From: Bacillota bacterium | GTDB lineage: Bacteria > Bacillota > Clostridia > Tissierellales > Peptoniphilaceae | DNA length: 56,851 bases | Assembly (NCBI GenBank): GCA_023393815.1 | Contig: JAEXBU010000016.1 | Coordinates: 1 to 56,851, forward strand | Reading direction: 5' to 3' | Part shown: positions 8,646 to 38,999 of the stretch, piece by piece | Layout: each line of letters begins with the position of its first letter | Position numbering within the stretch: the first letter of the stretch is position 1 | Made by a program: the position numbers and the translations under genes | Notes under the pieces: generated by a model | What the model saw: only the letters and a program-made list of their open reading frames with translations | What the model was told of the DNA's origin: nothing | Database searches by the model: none

Positions 8646-8663
8646 ATCAAAACATGAAAAAAA

Positions 8664-8774
8664 ATATCTTCTTTCATCCGGACTGTCACCGTCGGTATTG
8701 GAATTGCACCAATTCAGTCTTTCGACGCGTGGACTTTACCACCGATGAGGAATTTCACCTCGCCCTGAAGATTC
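8664..8774 (-). ncRNA. FMN (RFN) riboswitch
   Basis: ATCTTCAGGGCGAGGTGAAATTCCTCATCGGTGGTAAAGTCCACG...TTGGTGCAATTCCAATACCGACGGTGACAGTCCGGATGAAAGAAGAT matches the RFN consensus. Confidence 0.97.
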
Positions 8775-8891
8775 TTATTCTTTAGTACGTGTTTATTATA
8801 CCACGTTCATAGATAAATGAAAGGCTTTTTCAAAAAATAGATGCAACAAAAAAAGCCCCGAAGGGCTCTTTTGTGATTTCGAAAACAGTGG

Positions 8892-9575
8892 CTATTTACC
8901 GACGATCATATCGGAAAGACGTAAGGGTTCGATGTATTCGCCCTCTTTAAAGACGCGCATATTTCCGCCGGAGACTTCGTCGATTAAGACGACTTCGTCG
9001 CTACCTTCCAAGCGGCCGAATTCCAACTTAATGTCGTACATTTCGAGACCGCGCGCTTTTAAGTCGTCGTAGATGACTTGGGCGATGGAGCGGGTCAGTT
9101 CCTTAATGCGGTCGTATTCCCCTTCTTTCAGGATGCCCAAAAGAACCAAGGCGTCTTCATTGATGAGGGGGTCTTGGCGTTCATCGTCTTTTAAGGTAAA
9201 TTCGACGTAGCGGTTTAAATCGTCTCCGTCTTCGACGTATTTACCGTAACGACGGATAAAGCTGCCGGTAGCCTTAAAGCGACAGATGACTTCCAAACCT
9301 TGACCGAACACTTTGGCCGGTTTCACTTCCATCAGACGATTGTCCACGTCGGCGGAAATGTAGTGCGTAGGGATATTTTCCGCTTCAAACTTTTCAAAAA
9401 AGTACTTGCTCATGGCGATGCAAGCGCGGCCGGAACCTTCGATCGAAAGACCTACTTGGTTTTCACCCGGATCAAAGACGCCGTCCTTGCCCGTTACGTC
9501 GTCTTTAAAGAAAAAGTAAGTCTTTCCATCTTCTTGTAGAATCTTCTTCGTCTTTCCTTCGTAAATAGTTTTCAA
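8892..9575 (-). CDS. purC: SAICAR synthase, stand-alone
   Basis: YEGKTK, FKDDVT, LEVICR, GSFIRRYG, LKDDERQDP, DIKLEFG, DEVSGGNMRV; TTG start after AGGAGG. Confidence 0.95.
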   Translation of the reverse strand: MKTIYEGKTKKILQEDGKTYFFFKDDVTGKDGVFDPGENQVGLSIEGSGRACIAMSKYFFEKFEAENIPTHYISADVDNRLMEVKPAKVFGQGLEVICRFKATGSFIRRYGKYVEDGDDLNRYVEFTLKDDERQDPLINEDALVLLGILKEGEYDRIKELTRSIAQVIYDDLKARGLEMYDIKLEFGRLEGSDEVVLIDEVSGGNMRVFKEGEYIEPLRLSDMIVGK

Positions 9576-9715
9576 AATACCCTCCTGTCATACACTCAAA
9601 TCGTACAACTTATTTTACTACAAATGAAAGCAGGAAAACAGAGCTCGTGCAACTTTTTTCCCGACTTTTCACAATAAATTTTGCCCAATGAAAAAGCGCC
9701 CGCAGGCGCTTTGGT

Positions 9716-11098
9716 TTAAATGGCGTGTTTATTGGAATTATAAATGACTACCGGCATACCTTTAAAGGCATTCTTGTAGAACGTCGGCGTCTTCGACGGC
9801 GGCGTATTCACACAGCCGTGGCTTCCGCCTCCACGGTAGATGCCCCCGCCGTAGCTGCCTCGCCAGTTGGAATCGTGAATGCCGCAGCCCGACCAGTTAA
9901 AGGGCATCCAGTACTTGACGAAACTCTTCCATGTATCCCCCGTCAAGTAGCGGTTGCGTTCCATCATCCAAATTTCTTGCGTTCCCGTAGGCGTGCTGTT
10001 TCCGGTGTAGGGATTTCCCGTAACGACGGGGGTGTCGATCACCAAATTCCCGTCTTTATAGAGCCACATATGTTGTCTCGCAATGTCGATTTCGATATAG
10101 CTGTTGCCGAGGTCATTGACATTGCGGCTCATCGCTCTTCGCTTGTAGATCGGCTCCATGGTTTGTACTTTTTTATCTTTCATGGCCGTGATCAGCTGTT
10201 CGCGAGTCTTCGGCTGATCAATTTGCCACCCGTAAATTCCCCCCGTTACGCGCATCATGGCACCGCCGGTGGCTTGAAAGTCCCGACTTCCTTTAAACGT
10301 ATCGTACTTTTTCCCCAACTCCGCCACATAGGTCTTTACCTTTTCTTCGTCCGGTTCCAAACTGCCGTCGACGGACGACTTGTAAAGAGCAATCAAGTTT
10401 TCTCCGGCGAGCACTTCTTCCCGATCGGAAAAATTATAGGTGAGCTTATACTCTTCGATGGCATTTAAGCTGGCCACGTGCTTTTCCATATGATCCCGAT
10501 CTTCCACCGGCACGGGCTTCAAGTATAGATCCGCCTTCTTCGCATCCAAGGTCTTATCCTGTTTATGCAGAGACTTCAACACGACTCCTTTCAGTTTAGG
10601 CCCGTCCAGGCGGGTTCCCTCTTTGGCATCGGCGATCACATAGCCCTTGCCCTCTTCATAAACGATCCTCTCCGGAATGGGATCGACAATGTCTTCGTCC
10701 GTGACCATGCGCATCGTGGCCAGGGCATTCTCCAGCTTTTCGTCGTCGTAAGAAATGGACGTCTGTACCTTATAATCTTTTTTCATAAAGGCGTACACGG
10801 GCCACGCCCAAGGACTGTATTCTTTCATTTGAAAATCGGGCATGGTTTCTTTGTAGCCAATGTCCGATGCCTTAATCGTGTCGATCTTGTCGTCCTTGCC
10901 GACGATCTGTAAGGCATACTCTTTCCAGGATGCCTTAAAATGATCCCTTAAATTGGCCTTGAATTGAAGGGATATATCGGCCCCGTTGACCGACGTATTC
11001 GGCATATACACTTGTGTAAAGGCCACAGCGCCCAGTAAATAGATCGCGAGCAACACACCGATGAGGATGGCCGCGATTTTTCCCATTCGATTACTCAA
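9716..11098 (-). CDS. L,D-transpeptidase (membrane anchor + PG-binding repeats + YkuD domain)
   Basis: YIEIDIARQHMW, VVTG, TPTG, GIHD, SHGCVN catalytic motif. Confidence 0.92.
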   Translation of the reverse strand: MSNRMGKIAAILIGVLLAIYLLGAVAFTQVYMPNTSVNGADISLQFKANLRDHFKASWKEYALQIVGKDDKIDTIKASDIGYKETMPDFQMKEYSPWAWPVYAFMKKDYKVQTSISYDDEKLENALATMRMVTDEDIVDPIPERIVYEEGKGYVIADAKEGTRLDGPKLKGVVLKSLHKQDKTLDAKKADLYLKPVPVEDRDHMEKHVASLNAIEEYKLTYNFSDREEVLAGENLIALYKSSVDGSLEPDEEKVKTYVAELGKKYDTFKGSRDFQATGGAMMRVTGGIYGWQIDQPKTREQLITAMKDKKVQTMEPIYKRRAMSRNVNDLGNSYIEIDIARQHMWLYKDGNLVIDTPVVTGNPYTGNSTPTGTQEIWMMERNRYLTGDTWKSFVKYWMPFNWSGCGIHDSNWRGSYGGGIYRGGGSHGCVNTPPSKTPTFYKNAFKGMPVVIYNSNKHAI

Positions 11099-15620: not shown

Positions 15621-15644
15621 AGATTCACCTCCTCGTTTTCTACA

Positions 15645-15745
15645 TAAAAAAATCACATTGCAGACACAATGCGAGTACCAAATGCAAATTCAGTCACCTC
15701 GGCAGGAAATTAAGGCGAACCACCTGCTGTCTGCGGTTTCAACTC
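15645..15745 (-). ncRNA. L10 leader (ribosomal-protein autoregulatory RNA) with terminator
   Basis: CCGCAGACAGCAGGTGG...TTAATTTCCTGCCGAGG core, then CATTG-TGTCTG-CAATG hairpin + T-tract ahead of rplJ. Confidence 0.85.
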
Positions 15746-15786
15746 GTTCATAATACCAAAAAAAAATCCCTCTGTAAAGGGACTTT

Positions 15787-25156: not shown

Positions 25157-28100
25157 TTATTTCCGTTTCTTTCCCAATATATAGTCCACGCCGGCTTGAA
25201 TAAGCGGCATCACGTGTACGTCGGGAATGTTTTTGTAGAGATTGTCTTCTACCCGTTCAATGTGGCCCATTTTTCCTAAAATGTGGCCGTCGGGGCTGAT
25301 GAGCCCTTCTATATTGAACGCACTGCCGTTCGGATTGTCCACGTAGGTAAAGGCCACTTGATGATTTTCCGCCAAGGCCTTTGCCTGTTCCTTCGAAACG
25401 ACCAAACGCCCTTCCCCGTGACTGACGGGTACGCGGTACAGATCCCCCGGCCTCAGGTACATGAGCCAAGGTGCGTCGTTGGTCATGACTTTCGTGGTGA
25501 CCATGCGCGCCACGTGGCGGCCGTTGTCGTTAAAGGTGAGCGTCGGCGAGTCGTCTTGTTGGACGCGGGCTTCGCCGTAAGGCAGGTAGCCGGATTTAAT
25601 CAGGGCTTGGAAGCCGTTACAAATGCCGAGAACCAACCCTTTCTTTTCCTTTACCAAATGGTGCATCGCATCTTTGACTCTGTCGGTACGAAGAATGTTT
25701 GCGATAAATTTCGCCGAACCGTCTGGCTCGTCGCTAAAGCTGAAGCCGCCGGGAATGGCAAAAATGTCCGCCTCTCGAATTTTTTCGGCCAATTGGGAAA
25801 TGCTGTCCACCGTTTCTTGTGCCGTTTGATTTTTAAAGACAAATACTTCTGCCTCGGCTCCCGCCTTGGTGAAGACGTCTTTCGTGTCGTATTCGCTGTT
25901 GGTGCCGGGGAAGCAGGCAATGAGTACGCGACAACGATTTTTTTCGCCCATGTCTTGAATGCGGCTGTCTCCCGCCTGTACATCTCCCGGAGTTTCTTTT
26001 TGATCGTGGATTTCCGGCGGGAAGACTTTATCCAGTCCCGTGGTATAGGCTTTTTTAATGGCCTCGTCGTCTAAGGCTTCGCCATTCACCACATATCCCG
26101 CGCTCGTCAGCTTGCCGATGGCCGTAACGCCGTCAAAGTCTTCTTTGTATTCCACGACGATATCGCCATAGCGCGCGTTGTAAAGATCTTCCAGTTTCAC
26201 GTCGAATCCCAGATCGTTTCCTAAGGCGGAAATAATCAGACCCGGCAAGGTTCCCTTATGGGTCACGGCGGCGGCGGAGAGAATGTTCCCCGCGTCCATT
26301 TCTCTTTTAAGCGTCTTTGCCGACGCTTGGAAATCGTCGAGATCGATTTTCCCGTCTTCCGTCCGTTTCGCCTTTAGAATGCCCAACGGATTTCCCGCAG
26401 CCGTAAAGACATTGGAGACGACTTCTTTTGCCGCCATCGGCGCGACGGCAAAGGAAACCAACGTCGGCGGCACGTCCTTATCTCGGAAAGTTCCGCTCAT
26501 GGAGTCTTTTCCCCCGATGGGCGGAATTTGAAGATCCATACAGGCGTCGAAGGCTCCTAAGAGGGCCTTTAAGGGTTTTTGCCAGCGCGCTTCGTCTTCG
26601 CCGAGTTTTTCGAAATACTCTTGGAAGGTAAAGTACATATCTTCGATTCTCGCGCCGGTGGCCACGAGTTTCGCCACAGATTCCACCACGGCGTAGTAAG
26701 CCCCCAAGTATTGATTCTCCGCGAGAAATTCCGGATTCGAGCCGTAACTCATGACGCTCGCCGTTTGGCTCTTCTTTCCTTCTACGGGGATCAGCCCCGC
26801 CATCGCCTGCGTGGGCGTCCATTGATCCTTTCCTCCCAAGGGCATAAGCACCGTGCCGCGGCCAACGCTGTTGTCGAATTTTTCGATCAAATTCTTTTGG
26901 CTCACCACGTTCAGATCGCCCATGCGTTTTACTATGTCTTCGGCGGTGTAGCCGTCGTAGCGATTCAGGTAGTGGCAGATCGGGTCTTTTTCTACGACTA
27001 CTTTTTGGCTTCGATCCACGCCGGCCGTTTCGATAAAGGCGCGGTCTAAATCCACTATAAGGGTGTCTTCGTAGTACATACGCATGGCCGCTTCTTCGGT
27101 AACTTCCGCTACCACGGTCATTTCCAAATTTTCTTCCCGGCTCATTTTTTCGAACAGGGGCAGATCCTCTTTTTCGATGACCACGGCCATCCGTTCTTGG
27201 GATTCGGAAATGGCGATTTCTTTCGGTTTCAGTCCCGCGTATTTCAAGGGCACCTTGTCCAATTGCACGCGAATGCCCGGAGCCAATTCGCCGATGGCTA
27301 CGGACACGCCGCCTGCGCCGAAGTCGTTGCAGCGCTTAATGCGCGAGGCGATTTCCGGCCGACGGAACAGGCGCAGGAGCTTTCGCTCTTGGGGCGCGTT
27401 TCCCTTTTGCACTTCCGCACCGGCCGTAGCCAAGGAATTCGCCGTGTGTTTTTTGCTGCTTCCCGTAGCGCCGCCGATGCCGTCTCGACCTGTACGGCCG
27501 CCCAATAAGAGGATGCTATCTCCGGGCTTCGGCTCGCCGCGCCATACATTGGCTTCGGCCACGGCGCCGACGACCGCGCCCACTTCCATGCGCTTCGCCA
27601 TGTAGCCATCATGGTAAAGTTCTTCTACAAGGCCTGCGGGAATGCCGATTTGATTGCCGTAAGAGGCGTAGCCGTTGGCAGCTTCGGTGGTAATCTTTTT
27701 TTGAGGCAGCTTGCTTTCCCACGTGTCTTCCATTGGCATGGTAGGATCGCCGCTTCCCGTCAAACGCAGGGCTTGATAGACGTAAGCTCTGCCGGAAAGC
27801 GGGTCGCGAATGCAGCCGCCGAGGCAGGTGGATGCGCCGCCGTAGGGCTCGATCTCCGTGGGGTGATTGTGTGTTTCGTTTTTAAACATCAGAAGGTAGG
27901 GGATGGTTTCTTCTTTCCCCGTTTGCAAATCTTCCGCCACCACGTCCACGCGAATGGAACAGGCGTTGATTTCTTCGGACTCTTCCACATTGGTCTTTAC
28001 GCCCTCGGCCTTTAAAACTTTGGCCACGATGGTGCCTAAGTCCATCAGACTTACGGGCTTCTTGCGGCGGATTTCTTCCCGCGTCTTTACATAGCGTTCG

Positions 28101-30100
28101 TAGGCCGCCGTAATTTTTTCGTCCACGCCCTCGTTGAAGTGTACCTCTAAGGCCGTGTTAAAGGTCGTGTGGCGACAGTGATCGGACCAATAGGTGTCCA
28201 GTATGGCCAGTTCCGTTTCGTTAATATCCCGGCCGATTTCTTTAAAGTGGGATTGAATAAAGGCAAAGTCTTCCAAGCTCATGGCGAGATCCATGGACTC
28301 GAAACGACGTTTCAATTCCTCTTCGTTCCAAGACGTAAAGCCTTCCACTACCTCGTTTTCCGGGTTCTTCTTCAGCTCTTTTCGAATGGTCGTAGGTACG
28401 CCGAAGAGGCTGCCGATTTTTTGATCCACAGGATTGACCAAGTGTTTCACGATCGCTGCGTAGGCGTCTTCGTCCACGTCGCCGATAAAATCATAGACCG
28501 TAGCGCACTTAGCCTCCAGGTGCGTATGACCGAAGAGCGCCGTTGCCGTGTCCAAAACGCCCGCTTGCCGTTGATCGTATTGCCCCGGTTGGTATTCCAC
28601 CACGAGGCCGTGATCCATCGCCCCTTGCAGCAGGAAGGCATCGTCTCCGCTGAAAACCACGTCGCTGGGCGCTTCAAAAAGCACTTCTTCCGTCAGGCGC
28701 TTCCCTTCCGATTCCGTCAAGCCTTCCAAGTCGTAGCGGGCGTAGATTTTCACGTCGTCTAAGTGAATGCCTAGTTCTTCGTTTAGCTGCGCGCAAAGAC
28801 TCTTGCCCCGGTTATCGAAACCGGGCTTTCTTCCCACATAGACCCGATGGATCATAGGGCCGATATCTCTGCGAATTTGTTTGTGTGCAAATTGAATTTT
28901 GTCCGCTCCGTCGTAAGCCGCTTGAATGGCTTCTTCGAAGGTATCTCCTGTCGCGGTGACGGTAAGCACCCGACCGCCGTTGGTAAGGAGCTTTCCCCCT
29001 TCCAATTTCGTTCCCGCATGGAACACGGTCACGCCCTTTAGGTCTTCGGGAATGAAAATTTCTACGCCTTTTTCAGAGGACTCCGGATAGCCTCCGCTGG
29101 CCAAGGTCAGCGAGACGACTTTTTTGTCGTTTTCTTTTACCCGCACTCGATCCAATTCTCCCTTGGACGTGGCGAGCATAATATCCAGAAGATCTCCGTC
29201 CAAACGTTCCAGTACCGATTGGGTTTCCGGATCGCCGAAACGACAATTGTATTCGAGAATTTGCGGGCCCGCATCGGTAATCATAATCCCCATAAAGATC
29301 AGGCCGCGAAAATCCATTCCGTCTTTTTTCAAACCGTCCATAAAGGGGCGTACCAATGTTTCGTCGATGGTATCCAAAAGGGGCAGGGCTTCCACATTGG
29401 GCGCGTAGCTTCCCATGCCTCCGGTGTTCGGCCCTCGCCCTCCTTCGTATATGGACTTGTGGTCCTTGGCCGTGGCCAGAGGAGCGATGGTCTTTCCGTC
29501 GCAGAAGGCGAGAAGACTCATTTCAAAGCCTTCTAAAAATTCTTCCACGACCACCCGGTCCGTGTGAAACCGATCCTTGTCGTAGACATCGGACAAGAAG
29601 GCTTCCACCTCGGCTTCGTGATAGGCGATGACTACGCCTTTTCCCGCAGCCAGGCCGTCGGCCTTTAAGACGGCTACGCCCTTGTCGGCCAATAAGTTCA
29701 CGGCCGCCTGACGTACCGTGGCGGGATCCGTGGACTCTACGTACGCCGCCGTGGGAATGTGGTGGCGAAGGCAAAATTCCTTCGTAAAGCGCTTGGAACC
29801 TTCCAACTGCGCCGCTTCTTTTCTCGGGCCGAAAATCGCAAGACCCGCATCTTCGAAGGCATCGGCAATGCCGGCAACTAAAGGCGCTTCGGGACCGACG
29901 ATGGTAAAGTCGATGCCCTCGTCTTTGGCGAAGGCGAGCAAGCCCGAAATATCGTCCGCTTCCACGGCGATGTTTTCGCCTACATCGCCCGTGCCCCCGT
30001 TGCCCGGCGCAAAGTATATCTTTTCTACGTCTTTATTTTTGGCGACGGCATGGCCGATTGCGTGCTCGCGACCGCCGCTACCGACAATTAGTACCTTCAC
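25157..30100 (-). CDS. purD-purL: Fused phosphoribosylamine-glycine ligase (PurD) + single-chain FGAM synthase (PurL with glutaminase domain)
   Basis: aa 1-415: GSGGREHA, KADGLAAGKGV, GPNTGGMG, RFGDPETQ, TNGGRVL; aa 416-1647: YWSDHCRH, KNETHNHPTE, DFGAGG, SESQERM, GGKDSMSG, GICNGFQ, MGHIER; no stop at the junction. Confidence 0.95.
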   Translation of the reverse strand: MKVLIVGSGGREHAIGHAVAKNKDVEKIYFAPGNGGTGDVGENIAVEADDISGLLAFAKDEGIDFTIVGPEAPLVAGIADAFEDAGLAIFGPRKEAAQLEGSKRFTKEFCLRHHIPTAAYVESTDPATVRQAAVNLLADKGVAVLKADGLAAGKGVVIAYHEAEVEAFLSDVYDKDRFHTDRVVVEEFLEGFEMSLLAFCDGKTIAPLATAKDHKSIYEGGRGPNTGGMGSYAPNVEALPLLDTIDETLVRPFMDGLKKDGMDFRGLIFMGIMITDAGPQILEYNCRFGDPETQSVLERLDGDLLDIMLATSKGELDRVRVKENDKKVVSLTLASGGYPESSEKGVEIFIPEDLKGVTVFHAGTKLEGGKLLTNGGRVLTVTATGDTFEEAIQAAYDGADKIQFAHKQIRRDIGPMIHRVYVGRKPGFDNRGKSLCAQLNEELGIHLDDVKIYARYDLEGLTESEGKRLTEEVLFEAPSDVVFSGDDAFLLQGAMDHGLVVEYQPGQYDQRQAGVLDTATALFGHTHLEAKCATVYDFIGDVDEDAYAAIVKHLVNPVDQKIGSLFGVPTTIRKELKKNPENEVVEGFTSWNEEELKRRFESMDLAMSLEDFAFIQSHFKEIGRDINETELAILDTYWSDHCRHTTFNTALEVHFNEGVDEKITAAYERYVKTREEIRRKKPVSLMDLGTIVAKVLKAEGVKTNVEESEEINACSIRVDVVAEDLQTGKEETIPYLLMFKNETHNHPTEIEPYGGASTCLGGCIRDPLSGRAYVYQALRLTGSGDPTMPMEDTWESKLPQKKITTEAANGYASYGNQIGIPAGLVEELYHDGYMAKRMEVGAVVGAVAEANVWRGEPKPGDSILLLGGRTGRDGIGGATGSSKKHTANSLATAGAEVQKGNAPQERKLLRLFRRPEIASRIKRCNDFGAGGVSVAIGELAPGIRVQLDKVPLKYAGLKPKEIAISESQERMAVVIEKEDLPLFEKMSREENLEMTVVAEVTEEAAMRMYYEDTLIVDLDRAFIETAGVDRSQKVVVEKDPICHYLNRYDGYTAEDIVKRMGDLNVVSQKNLIEKFDNSVGRGTVLMPLGGKDQWTPTQAMAGLIPVEGKKSQTASVMSYGSNPEFLAENQYLGAYYAVVESVAKLVATGARIEDMYFTFQEYFEKLGEDEARWQKPLKALLGAFDACMDLQIPPIGGKDSMSGTFRDKDVPPTLVSFAVAPMAAKEVVSNVFTAAGNPLGILKAKRTEDGKIDLDDFQASAKTLKREMDAGNILSAAAVTHKGTLPGLIISALGNDLGFDVKLEDLYNARYGDIVVEYKEDFDGVTAIGKLTSAGYVVNGEALDDEAIKKAYTTGLDKVFPPEIHDQKETPGDVQAGDSRIQDMGEKNRCRVLIACFPGTNSEYDTKDVFTKAGAEAEVFVFKNQTAQETVDSISQLAEKIREADIFAIPGGFSFSDEPDGSAKFIANILRTDRVKDAMHHLVKEKKGLVLGICNGFQALIKSGYLPYGEARVQQDDSPTLTFNDNGRHVARMVTTKVMTNDAPWLMYLRPGDLYRVPVSHGEGRLVVSKEQAKALAENHQVAFTYVDNPNGSAFNIEGLISPDGHILGKMGHIERVEDNLYKNIPDVHVMPLIQAGVDYILGKKRK

Positions 30101-33226: not shown

Positions 33227-34573
33227 CTAAATCACTGTCGGATCTACGGGATACTCCCCGTTAAAGCAAGCGATACAATAGTTGTCTATGTCTTTCTTTC
33301 CGGCTCGCGCCAAACCTTCCAAAGAAATAAAGGCCAAAGAGTCGGCACCGATGTTTTCCTCGATTTCCTTAATGCTTTGATTGGCGGCAATTAAGTGCTT
33401 GCGGTTCGGCGTGTCGATCCCGTAGTAGCAGGAATACTTTACCGGCGGCGAAGTAATGCGCATATGCACTTCTTTGGCTCCGGCATCTCTTAATCGATGG
33501 ATTAAGTTGCGGCTCGTGGTGCCCCGCACGATGGAGTCGTCCAAGAGGACGATGGATTTTCCCTTCACCACGTCCACCAAGGGGTTTAACTTCAGTTTTA
33601 CCGCCATATCCCGTTCCTTTTGGGTGGGCTTAATAAAGGTACGCCCCATGTAGCGGTTCTTTACCAAACCTTCACCGTAGGGGATGTGAGCCGCTTGCGA
33701 ATAGCCGATAGCCGATGGGATCCCGCTGTCCGGAACGGGCACAACCAAGTCTACATTGCACGGCGCTTCCTCCCAAAGAATTTCCCCACAGCGGCGGCGG
33801 AAATTGTAGGCGTTCACATTGTCCAGTGTCGCGTCGTTCCGCGCAAAATAGACGTATTCAAAAATACAGTTTTTCGGCGTATCTTCCGATTCGTAGCGAT
33901 CGGAATGAATACCCGTCTCGTCGATCACGAGAATTTCGCCGGCTTCGATGTCCCGCGTCATGTTTCCGCCGATAATTTCTACAGCCGCGTTTTCACTGGC
34001 GACGATCACGTCGTCCCCGTCTCTTCCCAACACCAAGGGGCGGAACCCATGGGGATCGCGGAAGGCCACGACTTTGCCCTTCACCAGCGCCGTCACCGAG
34101 TAAGCCCCCTTGATTACGCCCATGGTCTTTTTAATCGCCTCGACGATGTCCCCGTCGTAGTAGCGCGTGATTAAGTACAGGATTACTTCCGTGTCGTTGG
34201 TCGTTTGGAACATCATCCCCTCTTCTTCCAGACGTTCCCGAAGCACTTGGTAATTTACCAAGTTGCCGTCGTTGGCGATGGCGATGGTTTCCCCGCCGAT
34301 AAAACCCATAATCGGCTGAATATTATAGTCGTGGGATCCTTCCGCCGTGGAATAGCGCACGTGACCGATGCCGATGTTTCCGGAAAGTTCCCGTAAGCTT
34401 TCTTCCGTGTAGGCGTCAATCACCAAGCCCATGGACCGCTTTCTTAGAATTTCTTCCCCGTTGTAAATGGCCATCCCCGTAGCTTCCTGTCCCCGGTGCT
34501 GCAGCGAATTCATGCCGTAAAACAGGCTGGTTGCGACTTTCGACTTGCTATAAATTCCAATAACTCCACACAT
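33227..34573 (-). CDS. purF: Amidophosphoribosyltransferase
   Basis: N-terminal MCG, LQHRGQE, GHVRYST, CIFEYVYFAR, DDSIVRGTT, CIACF. Confidence 0.98.
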   Translation of the reverse strand: MCGVIGIYSKSKVATSLFYGMNSLQHRGQEATGMAIYNGEEILRKRSMGLVIDAYTEESLRELSGNIGIGHVRYSTAEGSHDYNIQPIMGFIGGETIAIANDGNLVNYQVLRERLEEEGMMFQTTNDTEVILYLITRYYDGDIVEAIKKTMGVIKGAYSVTALVKGKVVAFRDPHGFRPLVLGRDGDDVIVASENAAVEIIGGNMTRDIEAGEILVIDETGIHSDRYESEDTPKNCIFEYVYFARNDATLDNVNAYNFRRRCGEILWEEAPCNVDLVVPVPDSGIPSAIGYSQAAHIPYGEGLVKNRYMGRTFIKPTQKERDMAVKLKLNPLVDVVKGKSIVLLDDSIVRGTTSRNLIHRLRDAGAKEVHMRITSPPVKYSCYYGIDTPNRKHLIAANQSIKEIEENIGADSLAFISLEGLARAGKKDIDNYCIACFNGEYPVDPTVI

Positions 34574-34699
34574 TGTTTGTGTTTAATCCTTTCTTTTCCT
34601 CACGTCAATTCGTTCTCGGTGCCCATACTGTCAATCTGTAAAAGGATACTTTTTCTTGGCTTCGACCGGCAAAGCCTTGCGCAAAACCTCCTAAACACT

Positions 34700-34730
34700 A
34701 AAAAAGGAGATACGGATTCCGTATCTCCTT
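34700..34730 (-). terminator. Strong intrinsic terminator upstream of purF
   Basis: AAGGAGATACGG-AAT-CCGTATCTCCTT-TTTT on the minus strand. Confidence 0.85.
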
Positions 34731-34839
34731 ATATGCCTACACTGAGGGCGCGGCTTGGCCACTTTTTAACGCAAGAGAAAACAAGCGTATCAAAAGCCAT
34801 GTGATGAAATTGCCCTTGAATAAGATAAAATCGCGTCAA
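34729..34839 (-). CDS. Candidate 36-aa leader peptide upstream of the pur operon
   Basis: TTG start 7 nt after a G7 SD-like run; MTRFYLIQGQFHHMAFDTLVFSCVKKWPSRALSVGI*; TAA overlaps the terminator 5' arm. Confidence 0.4.
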   Translation of the reverse strand: MTRFYLIQGQFHHMAFDTLVFSCVKKWPSRALSVGI

Positions 34840-34979
34840 TCCAACGCCCCCCCTTTGTCGTGCTTATTGTACCATATTTTTTTAGACGGAACAATCCACC
34901 GAAAAAATCCGACTTGTCATCGACACCTTCCCGTGAAATAATAAGAATACTTCGTTACGTTTTTTTAAAAGGAGGCACT

Positions 34980-35869: not shown

Positions 35870-36561
35870 TGCACTGACCCCCAAAAAGTTGGACCGAGAA
35901 ATCCAACCTTTGGGGGTCTTTTAATGGCAAAATACAGTTATGAACTGAAGAGGAAAATTGTCGAGGAATATTTATCCGGGAAGTCAAGTTCCCGTGACTT
36001 GGCAATGAAATACCAGATTGAAAAATCTGTTCTTAGACTATGGGTGAATAATTACAGACATTTTGGCGATGAAGGGTTCATGCACTCTAGAAATAATCGC
36101 GAGTACAGTCTAGAGTTTAAGTTAGAAGCCATTACACGTTACGAAACGAGCGAATGCAGCTATAGGCAACTTGCCCTTGCACTCGGTCTAACGAATCATT
36201 CCATGATCGCCAATTGGCGGAGACAGTACCGAGAGAAGGATCTTGAAGGGCTGCTCCCACATAAGCGAGGAAGACCTGTGACGAAGAAAGACGACCGCAA
36301 TCAAGCATCGAAGTCTCTAACAAAGAAGGTGCCCCTTGATGTACCCACACGGGAGGCATCGGAAAACCGCATCAAAGAATTCGAAGCGGAAAACCGGAAA
36401 CTCACCATTCTAAAGATGTTCTGGGAACAGTTGAGGAGTTTGAAGAGGGAAGAAGCAATACCGTGAACAGATGCAATCCGCGTAGAACGAACGTTATATA
36501 AAACAAAATCGAGCAAGCGAAATGCTTACTCGATTAAGTCCAACTTTATGGGGTCACTCTA
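35870..36561 (+). mobile_element. Internally deleted IS3-family (IS150-like) element, 692 bp
   Basis: Imperfect terminal IRs TGCACTGACCCCCAAAAAGTTGGAC / rc TAGAGTGACCCCATAAAGTTGGAC; 3-bp TAG direct repeat at 35867-69 and 36562-64; orfA present, DDE orfB absent. Confidence 0.88.
35924..36466 (+). CDS. IS3-family transposase OrfA (HTH repeats)
   Basis: MAKYSYELKRKIVEEYLSG, YSLEFKLEAI, NWRRQY, KRGRP, coiled-coil tail. Confidence 0.88.
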   Translation: MAKYSYELKRKIVEEYLSGKSSSRDLAMKYQIEKSVLRLWVNNYRHFGDEGFMHSRNNREYSLEFKLEAITRYETSECSYRQLALALGLTNHSMIANWRRQYREKDLEGLLPHKRGRPVTKKDDRNQASKSLTKKVPLDVPTREASENRIKEFEAENRKLTILKMFWEQLRSLKREEAIP

Positions 36562-38922: not shown

Positions 38923-38999
38923 TGGTCGAGATGACAGGATTTGAACCTGCGACCCCATGTCCCCCAGACATGTACGCTACCAAACTGCGCCACATCTCG
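38923..38999 (-). tRNA. tRNA-Pro (anticodon GGG), CCA encoded
   Basis: CGAGATGTGGCGCAGTTTGGTAGCGTACATGTCTGGGGGACATGGGGTCGCAGGTTCAAATCCTGTCATCTCGACCA folds as a cloverleaf. Confidence 0.97.

What the first reader, a model, noticed from the sequence alone, without database searches (positions are those of the whole stretch)
34574..34894. Structured leader with a 36-codon uORF ending on a terminator: candidate new attenuator of the pur operon
Seen on the minus strand: TTGTTC-17-TACAAT with TG extension (about 34894-34866); then AAAGGGGGGG, a TTG-initiated 36-codon ORF (34839-34729) whose TAA overlaps the start of a perfect 12-bp terminator stem with U-tract (34730-34700); purF starts about 125 nt later. 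The RNA also has nested pairings (ACGC/GCGT extended by CTTTT/AAAAG and TGGC/GCCA; GGCGTTGG with CCAAGCC and GGGCG with CGCCC, which would mask the SD). It does not resemble purine, ZTP or PRPP riboswitches by eye. Known: in pyrL-type attenuators a coupled ribosome blocks the terminator. Inference: a GTP/ATP-sensing, translation-coupled attenuator or an unknown riboswitch/sRNA. Caveat: a weaker TTGCCG-18-TATCCT at 34672-34643 could drive purF independently.
Basis: partly seen in the sequence, partly recalled or inferred. Interest (0 to 1): 0.72.

Follow-up and report, generated by a model that had tools for sequence, protein, structure and literature searches.

The report
Leader-peptide terminator gate before purine genes
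In front of the purine-synthesis genes of this gut bacterium sits a tiny translated reading frame that ends exactly on a transcription stop signal; the same design is kept across its bacterial family, so it most likely switches the operon on only when a ribosome follows the RNA polymerase closely.

Summary

The organism is an Aedoeadaptatus (Peptoniphilaceae). All 11 genus genomes keep this layout, although the ORF sequence drifts fast and one lineage has a frameshift. A Tissierellia MAG keeps it before purF. So do 19 of 40 sampled purC upstream regions from 8 other genera. There the U-tract is followed within 19-28 nt by the purC start codon.

- No Rfam family matches.
- There is no covariation outside the terminator.
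- No antiterminator partner for either terminator arm was found.
- No promoter-like site lies between the terminator and the first pur gene.

The best reading is therefore a ribosome-dependent transcription attenuator of the pyrBI/pyrE type: a ribosome reaching the stop codon occludes the 5' arm of the terminator. The riboswitch reading is not supported. SD masking is predicted but is no better than in shuffles.

The signal is not shown. It could be purine-NTP-limited polymerase speed or a peptide-mediated ribosome arrest. Four literature searches found no pur-operon leader peptide. I rate this a new variant of a known kind.

The parts
34866..34894 (-). Promoter of the leader: -35 TTGTTC (34894-34889), 17-nt spacer, TG (34874-34873), -10 TACAAT (34871-34866).
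   Evidence: Sequence. The block is invariant in the alignment of 6 genus members. A promoter-like site with extended -10 was found at this place in 12 of 12 leaders. The built-in scan does not list it, because the -35 has only 3 of 6 matches.
34847..34859 (-). Start of the transcript (inferred, at the conserved GA 7-8 nt after the -10) and the poly-G Shine-Dalgarno (G7, 34853-34847).
   Evidence: A G run of 4-7 lies 6-11 nt before the ORF start in all 12 leaders. The transcription start site is inferred, not mapped.
34729..34839 (-). Leader ORF: TTG start, 36 codons, TAA stop at 34731-34729.
   Evidence: The frame is open in 12 of 12 related leaders, with 0 stops in frame against 31 and 21 in the other frames. 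dN/dS is 0.25-2.3, so the peptide is only weakly constrained.
34698..34730 (-). Intrinsic terminator: 12-bp stem with a loop of 3 (34730-34704), then a U6 tract (34703-34698). The stop codon overlaps the stem by 2 nt.
   Evidence: It is the only helix conserved across the genus. The stem core GAGATACG...CGTATCTC was found in 9 of 11 genus genomes and in 0 of 227 other family genomes. The two remaining genus genomes carry variant stems.
34687..34692 (-). AGGAGG 6 nt after the U-tract: most likely the retained Shine-Dalgarno of a purC gene that stood here ancestrally.
   Evidence: Present at this place in all 11 genus leaders, as GGGAGG in L013. In the purC-type leaders of other genera the same position is the SD of purC, followed by its ATG.
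34643..34692 (-). Hairpin after the terminator that pairs AGGA..UUUU with AAAA..UCCU around a variable GGCUUC/GAAGCC stem. Seen only in the window's sub-clade.
   Evidence: RNAalifold on 6 sequences gives 15 pairs for this hairpin; 2 of its pairs show compensatory changes. Its function is unknown.
33227..34593 (-). purF (ATG at 34573, 448 aa) with its SD GAAAGGA (34593-34587). It is the first gene of purF-purM-purN-purH-purD/L.
   Evidence: Pfam hits. purF is 94% identical to that of named Aedoeadaptatus species.

Best explanation
The element is a ribosome-dependent (leader-peptide) transcription attenuator of the purine-biosynthesis operon.

Proposed mechanism:
- Transcription starts at the extended -10 promoter.
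- The only route to purF passes a strong intrinsic terminator.
- A ribosome that loads on the poly-G SD and translates the 36-codon leader ORF ends with its A site on the TAA that overlaps the base of the terminator stem. There it covers the 5' arm, the hairpin cannot close, and RNA polymerase reads on into purF-purM-purN-purH-purD/L.
- If the ribosome lags or never loads, the hairpin forms and transcription stops.
- No antiterminator RNA is involved. The regulated quantity is how closely the first ribosome follows the polymerase.

Shown:
- The anatomy and its conservation.
- The maintained reading frame.
- The lack of an alternative RNA structure.
- The lack of a promoter-like site downstream of the terminator at the thresholds used.

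Inferred:
- That translation causes read-through. This rests on analogy with pyrBI/pyrE and with the E. coli tR2 experiments.
- That the physiological signal is purine supply. The most likely route is low ATP/GTP slowing the polymerase so that the ribosome catches up. I put about 0.35-0.4 on this specific signal.
For: 1. Anatomy in the window is confirmed.

2. The layout is present in 11 of 11 genus genomes and one Tissierellia MAG.
- Extended -10 promoter.
- G-run SD 6-11 nt before the start codon.
- ORF of 33-49 codons.
- Stop codon end -2 to +13 nt from the start of the terminator stem.
- Two species (L014, L016) have a 1-nt deletion that changes the C-terminal third of the peptide. The frame still stays open and ends 6 nt before the stem.

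3. The frame is maintained.
- 0 in-frame stops against 31 and 21 in the other frames.
- In the AT-rich purC-type leaders, 0 against 111 and 113.
- The chance of an open frame is 0.003-0.1 per sequence.

4. The same architecture stands before purC in 19 of 40 sampled regions from 8 other genera.
- The stop lies -4 to +4 nt from the stem in 18 of 19.
- Only 19-28 nt separate the hairpin end from the purC ATG.

5. No promoter-like site lies between the ORF stop and the first pur gene: 0 of 12 and 0 of 18. Upstream of the ORF there is one in 12 of 12 and 14 of 18.

6. There is no antiterminator. The best duplex of either terminator arm with the upstream leader is no better than in shuffles. Mean z is +0.37 and -0.16, and 1 of 30 leaders has z < -2 for each arm.

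7. In three genera a 13-residue peptide motif (Y/H)DLxLI(N/D)KL(R/I)GK(L/I) is kept while synonymous sites are saturated.
- dN is 0.03-0.29.
- dS could not be computed in 13 of 15 pairs.
- These ORFs are therefore translated.

8. Experimental precedent in E. coli (PMC4824070, section 10 read).
- Moving a stop codon from 28 to 5 bp upstream of terminator tR2 lowered termination from about 90% to under 10%.
- Deleting the RBS abolished the effect.

9. Further precedent, from passages read:
- pyrL/pyrBI needs tight coupling to prevent the terminator (PMC5021804).
- The distance of the rph stop to the pyrE attenuator matters (PMC2784333).

10. No Bacillus-type PurR N-domain (PF09182) and no purine riboswitch (RF00167) were found in this 97%-complete genome.
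Against: - There are no expression data: no RNA run holds this stretch, so neither the TSS nor the terminated transcript has been seen.
- A stop codon close to a terminator is also normal for ordinary gene ends. In 5 sampled genomes purE ends -2 to +5 nt before a terminator.
- In the window's genus 93-160 nt lie between terminator and purF. A weak promoter there cannot be excluded by a consensus scan.
- In L018 and L022 the stop ends 13 and 9 nt before the stem, at the edge of what a ribosome covers.
- One related leader (L237) has the G run and terminator but no canonical start codon.
- Purine shortage would slow GTP-dependent translation as well as transcription, so the direction of the response is not self-evident.
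- Bacillus subtilis is reported to run polymerase ahead of ribosomes (abstracts seen in the listing). If that holds here, a pause is needed that I did not identify.
Confidence: 0.66

Rival explanations
1. The architecture is the same, but the sensor is the nascent peptide. A purine-pathway metabolite together with the leader peptide in the exit tunnel arrests the ribosome, as in TnaC or SpeFL. Arrest at the stop codon would give read-through. Arrest earlier in the ORF would uncouple the ribosome and give termination.
For: - Peptide-level purifying selection acts on a 13-residue internal motif in the purC-type leaders of three genera, with saturated synonymous sites.
- The stop is placed very tightly, -4 to +4 nt from the stem in 18 of 19. 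That fits a ribosome waiting at the stop codon.
- C-terminal residues are kept within genera.
Against: - No peptide motif is shared across the family. Mean column identity is 17% with no invariant column.
- hhalign between the window's genus and the motif-bearing group gives a probability of 0.4%.
- In the window's genus dN/dS is 0.25-2.3, and a frameshift replaced the C-terminal third in two species.
- The C-terminal conservation within genera is also nucleotide-level, so it does not prove peptide function.
Confidence: 0.17
2. An independent small gene (small protein or small RNA) with its own terminator lies upstream of purF. purF is driven by its own promoter in the 125-nt spacer, and the linkage is only synteny.
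For: - The spacer in this genus is 93-160 nt.
- TATCCT is invariant in the 6 closest relatives.
- Genes commonly end next to terminators (the purE cases).
- The upstream patatin gene is also syntenic in 8 of 10 other genus genomes.
Against: - No promoter-like site lies in the spacer in 0 of 12 leaders.
- The proposed -35 lies in a variable loop.
- In the homologous purC-type leaders only 19-28 nt separate the terminator from the purC ATG, leaving no room for a promoter.
- The element stays with the pur genes where the upstream neighbour differs (L015, L031 and the purC-type loci).
- The peptide is not conserved as a protein family.
Confidence: 0.1
3. A riboswitch or protein-binding RNA. The multi-branch fold enclosed by the G-run helix binds a purine-related ligand or a regulator and controls the terminator. 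The ORF is incidental.
For: - The fold is more stable than shuffles, z = -3.58.
- MFE structures pair the G run with a downstream C-rich segment in 11 of 12 leaders.
- The terminator base RGAGA...UCUCY is unusually invariant across genera.
- L237 keeps the G run and terminator without a canonical start codon.
Against: - There is no Rfam match at gathering or at E up to 10.
- The covariation term is +1.09, with only one compensatory pair, and that pair is in the terminator.
- Only the terminator is conserved genus-wide.
- The region that would be the aptamer is the least conserved part.
- SD pairing is not above shuffles: 8 of 30 leaders at 0.1 or below, and not in the window's clade.
- No terminator/antiterminator alternative exists.
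- Terminator loops vary freely.
Confidence: 0.05

Closest known systems
E. coli pyrBI attenuator (pyrL leader peptide) and the rph-pyrE attenuator
   Same: - A promoter-proximal translated ORF runs up to or into an intrinsic terminator that precedes nucleotide-biosynthesis genes.
- No antiterminator RNA is involved. The ribosome itself prevents the hairpin, so read-through depends on transcription-translation coupling (PMC5021804 passages; PMC2784333 passages).
- As with rph-pyrE, the distance of the stop codon to the hairpin is the critical geometry.
   Different: - The pathway is purine, not pyrimidine.
- The host is a Gram-positive anaerobe of the Tissierellia, not an enterobacterium.
- The stop codon abuts or overlaps the stem. 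By my recollection, not checked here, the pyrL frame runs through the terminator.
- No U-rich pause tract was identified.
- The NTP dependence is untested here.
Ribosome repression of terminator tR2 placed just after a stop codon (Li et al. 2016, PMC4824070)
   Same: The geometry is the same: a stop codon a few bases upstream of an intrinsic terminator makes termination depend on whether a ribosome is there (section 10 read).
   Different: That is a synthetic reporter in E. coli, not a natural regulatory leader.
TnaC / SpeFL metabolite-sensing arrest peptides
   Same: - A short leader ORF controls transcription termination downstream.
- A conserved peptide motif is present in one subfamily of the purC-type leaders.
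   Different: - By my recollection, those systems act on Rho-dependent termination and have strongly conserved peptides.
- Here the terminator is intrinsic.
- The peptide of the window's genus is poorly conserved.
trp/his-type leader-peptide attenuators
   Same: A leader peptide and an intrinsic terminator stand upstream of a biosynthetic operon.
   Different: - There is no run of regulatory codons.
- There is no alternative 2:3 antiterminator helix.

Membership tests
Coupling-type ribosome-dependent attenuator (pyrBI / pyrE kind) | A translated leader ORF with SD and start codon lies between the promoter and the structural genes. | tested here: met
   - An SD is present 6-11 nt before the start in 12 of 12 leaders.
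- The frame has 0 stops against 31 and 21 in the other frames.
- In the purC-type relatives it is 0 against 111 and 113.
- Translation itself is inferred, not measured.
Coupling-type ribosome-dependent attenuator (pyrBI / pyrE kind) | An intrinsic terminator lies between the only promoter and the first structural gene. | tested here: met
   - Terminator found.
- It is conserved in 11 of 11 genus genomes.
- No promoter-like site lies downstream of it, in 0 of 12 and 0 of 18 leaders.
- This rests on a consensus scan only.
Coupling-type ribosome-dependent attenuator (pyrBI / pyrE kind) | The ORF ends close enough to the hairpin for a ribosome to cover the 5' arm. | tested here: met
   - The stop ends at -2 nt in the window.
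- The range in the genus is -2 to +13.
- It is -4 to +4 in 18 of 19 purC-type leaders.
- Benchmark: 10-15 nt of free RNA are needed for the hairpin to fold (PMC4824070).
Coupling-type ribosome-dependent attenuator (pyrBI / pyrE kind) | No alternative antiterminator RNA structure exists. | tested here: met
   Duplex energies of both terminator arms with the upstream leader are no better than in shuffles.
Coupling-type ribosome-dependent attenuator (pyrBI / pyrE kind) | Read-through depends on translation and on NTP-sensitive polymerase speed. | not testable with these tools
   This needs reporters or a coupled in-vitro system. No RNA run holds the stretch.
Riboswitch (purine, ZTP, PRPP or a new class) | Match to a curated family model. 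| tested here: not met
   - No hit at gathering threshold in the window.
- The best hit in the leader is 16.7 bits at E = 0.6.
- There is none in 20 related loci.
Riboswitch (purine, ZTP, PRPP or a new class) | A conserved aptamer core with covarying helices and a terminator/antiterminator alternative. | tested here: not met
   The covariation term is +1.09, only the terminator is conserved, and no competing helix exists.
trp/his-type leader-peptide attenuator | Tandem regulatory codons and mutually exclusive 1:2, 2:3 and 3:4 helices. | tested here: not met
   The peptides show no codon runs. No antiterminator was found.
Regulatory arrest peptide (TnaC / SpeFL kind) | A peptide sequence conserved under purifying selection. 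| tested here: inconclusive
   - Met for the 13-residue motif in three other genera.
- Not met in the window's genus, where dN/dS is 0.25-2.3 and a frameshift is tolerated.
- There is no family-wide motif.
pyrG-type reiterative-transcription attenuator | A G run at the transcription start, whose extension pairs with a pyrimidine-rich 5' arm of the terminator (features recalled from memory). | tested here: not met
   - The G run begins 12-13 nt after the -10 in the genus leaders.
- That is downstream of the expected start site.
- The 5' arm of the terminator is purine-rich.
- The start site is not mapped.

The most novel reading that the evidence does not exclude
The leader ORFs of this family are metabolite-sensing nascent peptides. 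A purine-pathway compound acts inside the ribosome, together with lineage-specific peptide motifs such as (Y/H)DLxLI(N/D)KL(R/I)GK(L/I), to hold or release the ribosome. Ribosome position on the stop codon then sets an intrinsic terminator. That would be the first arrest-peptide sensor for nucleotide metabolism, and it would work in Gram-positive anaerobes.
Probability: 0.17. Interest if true: 0.85.

Novelty: new variant of a known kind. Interest (0 to 1): 0.64.

Why it matters
As far as I recall, the purine operons studied so far are controlled by PurR proteins or by guanine, ZTP or PRPP riboswitches. Four full-text searches found no report of a leader-peptide attenuator for a pur operon.

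This genome has neither a Bacillus-type PurR N-domain nor a purine riboswitch. The leader may therefore be the main control of de novo purine synthesis in a whole family of gut and skin anaerobes, including Finegoldia and Aedoeadaptatus.

Mechanistically, it would extend the pyrBI/pyrE principle to purines and to Firmicutes-like bacteria. That principle is sensing nucleotides through the race between polymerase and ribosome. In Firmicutes-like bacteria coupling is thought to be weak, so the leader would also be a natural probe of coupling in these organisms.

The conserved peptide motif in some genera offers a testable candidate for a new regulatory nascent peptide.

Tried and rejected
- **Metagenome scan** with the terminator core pattern.
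- **Sequencing runs**. No RNA holder is listed.
- **SD sequestration as a specific feature**. Predicted pairing of the SD averages 0.82, against 0.67 when the downstream part is shuffled. Only 8 of 30 leaders reach 0.1 or below, and the window's clade is not above shuffles. I rejected it as evidence.
- **Antiterminator search**: nothing found.
- **Structure covariation**: nothing outside the terminator.
- **Peptide families.** NCBIfam gave no meaningful hit for 29 peptides. Pfam gave none for the window's peptide. The profile search with the motif-bearing group found only 10 'hypothetical protein' clusters from Peptoniphilus, Peptoniphilaceae and Anaerosphaera. Profile-profile comparison of the genus peptides with that group gave a probability of 0.4%.
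- **pyrG-like reiterative transcription**: considered and rejected (see the membership test).
- **Purine-richness before the terminator as a pause signal**. Purine fraction rises to 0.65-0.73 only at the stop codon and in the 5' arm, which the stem and U-tract already explain. It is not informative.
- **Upstream synteny as an argument for linkage to purF**. The patatin gene is also syntenic in 8 of 10 genus genomes, so this gives only weak support.
- **Earlier notes of this scan** by place, sequence and words returned nothing. One search returned analogous, unchecked notes from other phyla.

Full report
**What is there**

All features below are read on the minus strand.
- The 397-nt gap lies between a divergent patatin-like gene (ATG at 34971, plus strand; Pfam Patatin) and purF (ATG at 34573).
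- A promoter: TTGTTC (34894-34889), 17 nt, TG (34874-34873), TACAAT (34871-34866).
- A run of seven G (34853-34847).
- A TTG-initiated ORF of 36 codons (34839-34729).
- A 12-bp, loop-3 hairpin followed by six T (34730-34698).
- The TAA overlaps the base of the stem by 2 nt, and purF starts 126 nt after the terminator.
- Downstream follow purM, purN, purH and a 1647-residue fusion of PurD with the large FGAM synthase.

**Organism and spread in the genus**

purF is 94% identical to that of named Aedoeadaptatus species of the Peptoniphilaceae. BLAST-type searches found the whole leader at 73-79% identity in 5 of the 10 other genus genomes. Reading the purF upstream regions of all ten showed the same layout in every one:
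- the invariant extended -10 promoter;
- a G-run SD 6-11 nt before a TTG or ATG;
- an ORF of 33-41 codons;
- a stop whose end lies -2 to +13 nt from the start of the terminator stem;
- the same terminator core.

A Tissierellia MAG (L031, purF 65% identical) has the layout too, with a 49-codon ORF. The inner part of the leader differs so much between sub-clades that it cannot be aligned, yet the frame is always open. Over 12 leaders there are 0 in-frame stops, against 31 and 21 in the other two frames. Two species carry a 1-nt deletion that replaces the last third of the peptide. The new frame is open as well and stops 6 nt before the stem. Pairwise dN/dS is 0.25-2.3. What is kept is therefore a translatable frame of the right length ending at the terminator, not a particular peptide.

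**Spread in the family**

In other Peptoniphilaceae purF follows purC. Looking upstream of purC, and then in 40 sampled purC upstream regions, I found the same unit in 19 of 40.
- They come from 8 genera, including Finegoldia.
- The unit is an extended -10 promoter, an SD, and an ATG-started ORF of 40-63 codons.
- The stop ends -4 to +4 nt from the terminator stem in 18 of 19, and inside the hairpin in one.
- After the U-tract comes the SD and ATG of purC, only 19-28 nt after the hairpin.

The other 21 regions divide as follows:
- 14 have no terminator in the 90 nt scanned upstream of purC: a gene such as purE runs up to purC, or purC has its own promoter and no leader.
- 5 have purE ending on a terminator.
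- 1 is a degenerate leader without a canonical start codon (L237).
- 1 is an atypical 87-codon ORF (L238).

These leaders are 18-44% G+C. A frame of that length would be open by chance with probability 0.003-0.1. They show 0 in-frame stops against 111 and 113 in the other frames.

Aligned on the stop codon, all leaders share this order of elements: stop, purine-rich RGAGA arm, pyrimidine-rich arm ending UCUCY, U-tract, then GGAGG. The invariant AGGAGG 6 nt after the U-tract in the window (34692-34687) therefore sits where the purC SD sits elsewhere. Aedoeadaptatus has most likely lost purC from this position. The window's purC is of a different type (no match to the Finegoldia-type query at E 1e-30 or better) and lies at 8892-9575 without such a leader.

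**What it is not**

*Not a known RNA family.*
- No Rfam family matches the leader in the window or in 20 related loci.

*No conserved structure outside the terminator.*
- RNAalifold on the six closest leaders gives a positive covariation term (+1.09). Its single compensatory pair is inside the terminator.
- Over the genus only the terminator remains as a consensus helix.

*SD masking is not supported.*
- MFE folds do pair the G run with a C-rich stretch late in the ORF in 11 of 12 leaders.
- A G run pairs with almost anything, though. Predicted SD pairing is 0.82, against 0.67 when the downstream sequence is shuffled.
- It is not above shuffles in the window's clade. I do not count SD masking as evidence.

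*No antiterminator.*
- Neither arm of the terminator has a better-than-chance partner in the upstream leader. Mean z is +0.37 and -0.16, with 1 of 30 below -2 for each arm.
- So there is no antiterminator of the riboswitch, T-box or trp kind.

*No known peptide family.*
- The peptides match no NCBIfam model.
- They are not alignable across genera: mean column identity 17%, hhalign probability 0.4%.

**How it most likely works**

A strong terminator stands between the only recognisable promoter and genes the cell needs, so it must be bypassed conditionally. A consensus scan finds no promoter-like site between the ORF stop and the first pur gene in 0 of 12 and 0 of 18 leaders. It finds one upstream of the ORF in 12 of 12 and 14 of 18.

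With no competing RNA helix, the remaining agent is the ribosome on the leader ORF. In E. coli, moving a stop codon from 28 to 5 bp upstream of terminator tR2 lowered termination from about 90% to under 10%. Deleting the RBS abolished that repression. The authors estimate that 10-15 nt of free RNA between the A site and the hairpin are needed for folding (PMC4824070, section 10 read). The pyrL/pyrBI and rph-pyrE attenuators use the same principle (passages read in PMC5021804, and PMC2784333).

The window's stop codon overlaps the stem, so a terminating ribosome would hold the whole 5' arm. I therefore read the element as a coupling-type attenuator. A ribosome close behind the polymerase gives read-through, and a lagging or absent ribosome gives termination.

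**The signal**

This step is inference. Three options follow.
Low ATP/GTP slows the polymerase more than the ribosome, coupling tightens, and the pur operon is switched on. This is the logic of UTP at pyrBI. It would suit an organism whose polymerase normally outruns ribosomes, as reported for Bacillus subtilis (abstracts in the listing).
- *Peptide-mediated arrest.* In three genera (those of Finegoldia, Peptoniphilus stercorisuis and one unnamed) a 13-residue motif, (Y/H)DLxLI(N/D)KL(R/I)GK(L/I), is kept. Synonymous sites are saturated (dN 0.03-0.29, dS not computable in 13 of 15 pairs), and the rest of the peptide evolves with dN about equal to dS. This shows translation and selection on the peptide in those lineages. 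The window's genus shows no comparable constraint.
- *Coupling purine synthesis to translation capacity.* A slow ribosome would switch the operon off. My data do not exclude this.

**Caveats**
- No transcript data exist for this stretch.
- Stop codons next to terminators are common at ordinary gene ends (5 purE cases).
- In this genus the spacer before purF is long enough to hide a weak promoter. TATCCT is invariant in the six closest relatives, but its -35 partner lies in a variable loop.
- The invariance of the RGAGA...UCUCY base of the terminator across at least 9 genera is not explained by any model here.

**Novelty**

I made four full-text searches:
- leader peptide, purine biosynthesis, attenuation and terminator;
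- purC, leader peptide and Finegoldia;
- ribosome-mediated attenuation and purine;
- upstream open reading frame, purine biosynthesis, transcription termination and Firmicutes.

I also read passages in two motif-discovery papers (PMC8632094; PMC11109978). None of these showed a described leader-peptide attenuator of a pur operon.

The motif-bearing peptides occur in the protein collection only as 'hypothetical protein'. Earlier unchecked notes of this scan describe mini-ORF-plus-terminator leaders before purF in two CPR bacteria and before guaB in Binatia. If real, the design is recurrent. The kind of mechanism is known. Its use for purine genes, its host group and the lineage-specific peptide motif are new.

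Noticed in passing
window 25157-30100 (-): One ORF of 1647 residues fuses PurD (GARS_N, GARS_A, GARS_C) to a large FGAM synthase (FGAR-AT linker, AIRS, AIRS_C, GATase_5). It is the last gene of the purF-purM-purN-purH operon.
   Followed up: no
window 8892-9575 (-), with 9576-9720: purC of this genome (SAICAR_synt, TTG start) lies 25 kb away, behind its own short promoter region, without a leader ORF or terminator. It gave no match to the Finegoldia-type purC query at E 1e-30 or better.
   Followed up: partly
window 34643-34692 (-): In the window's sub-clade a hairpin after the terminator pairs the retained AGGAGG with AUCCU. AUCCUUU is also complementary to the purF SD AAAGGAU, so it might act on purF translation. 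Two of its pairs show compensatory changes.
   Followed up: partly
L240, L242, L249, L250, L256 (purE-purC junctions of one genus, g64): purE ends -2 to +5 nt before a strong terminator (-17 to -29 kcal/mol), and purC starts 59-88 nt later. This looks like an rph-pyrE-like intercistronic attenuator inside the pur operon.
   Followed up: no
L237 (= upstream of purC in L023): A short leader with the same G run and an Aedoeadaptatus-like terminator but no ATG, GTG or TTG start. The frame that ends on the terminator would have to start at CTG.
   Followed up: no
all leaders, aligned: The base of the terminator stem (RGAGA on the 5' side, UCUCY on the 3' side) is invariant across at least 9 genera, while the loop and upper stem vary. 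The 3' arm resembles an anti-SD and could pair with the SD that follows it.
   Followed up: partly
window 8662-8776 (-), 15638-15754 (-), 38926-38999 (-): An FMN riboswitch (105 bits), a ribosomal protein L10 leader (64 bits) and a tRNA, all above the Rfam gathering scores.
   Followed up: no
window 35924-36466 (+); G000 contig C96 4126-4545: A 180-residue ORF with transposase-type HTH domains lies next to the patatin gene. Elsewhere in the genome there is a second AIRC-domain match with an in-frame TAA.
   Followed up: no
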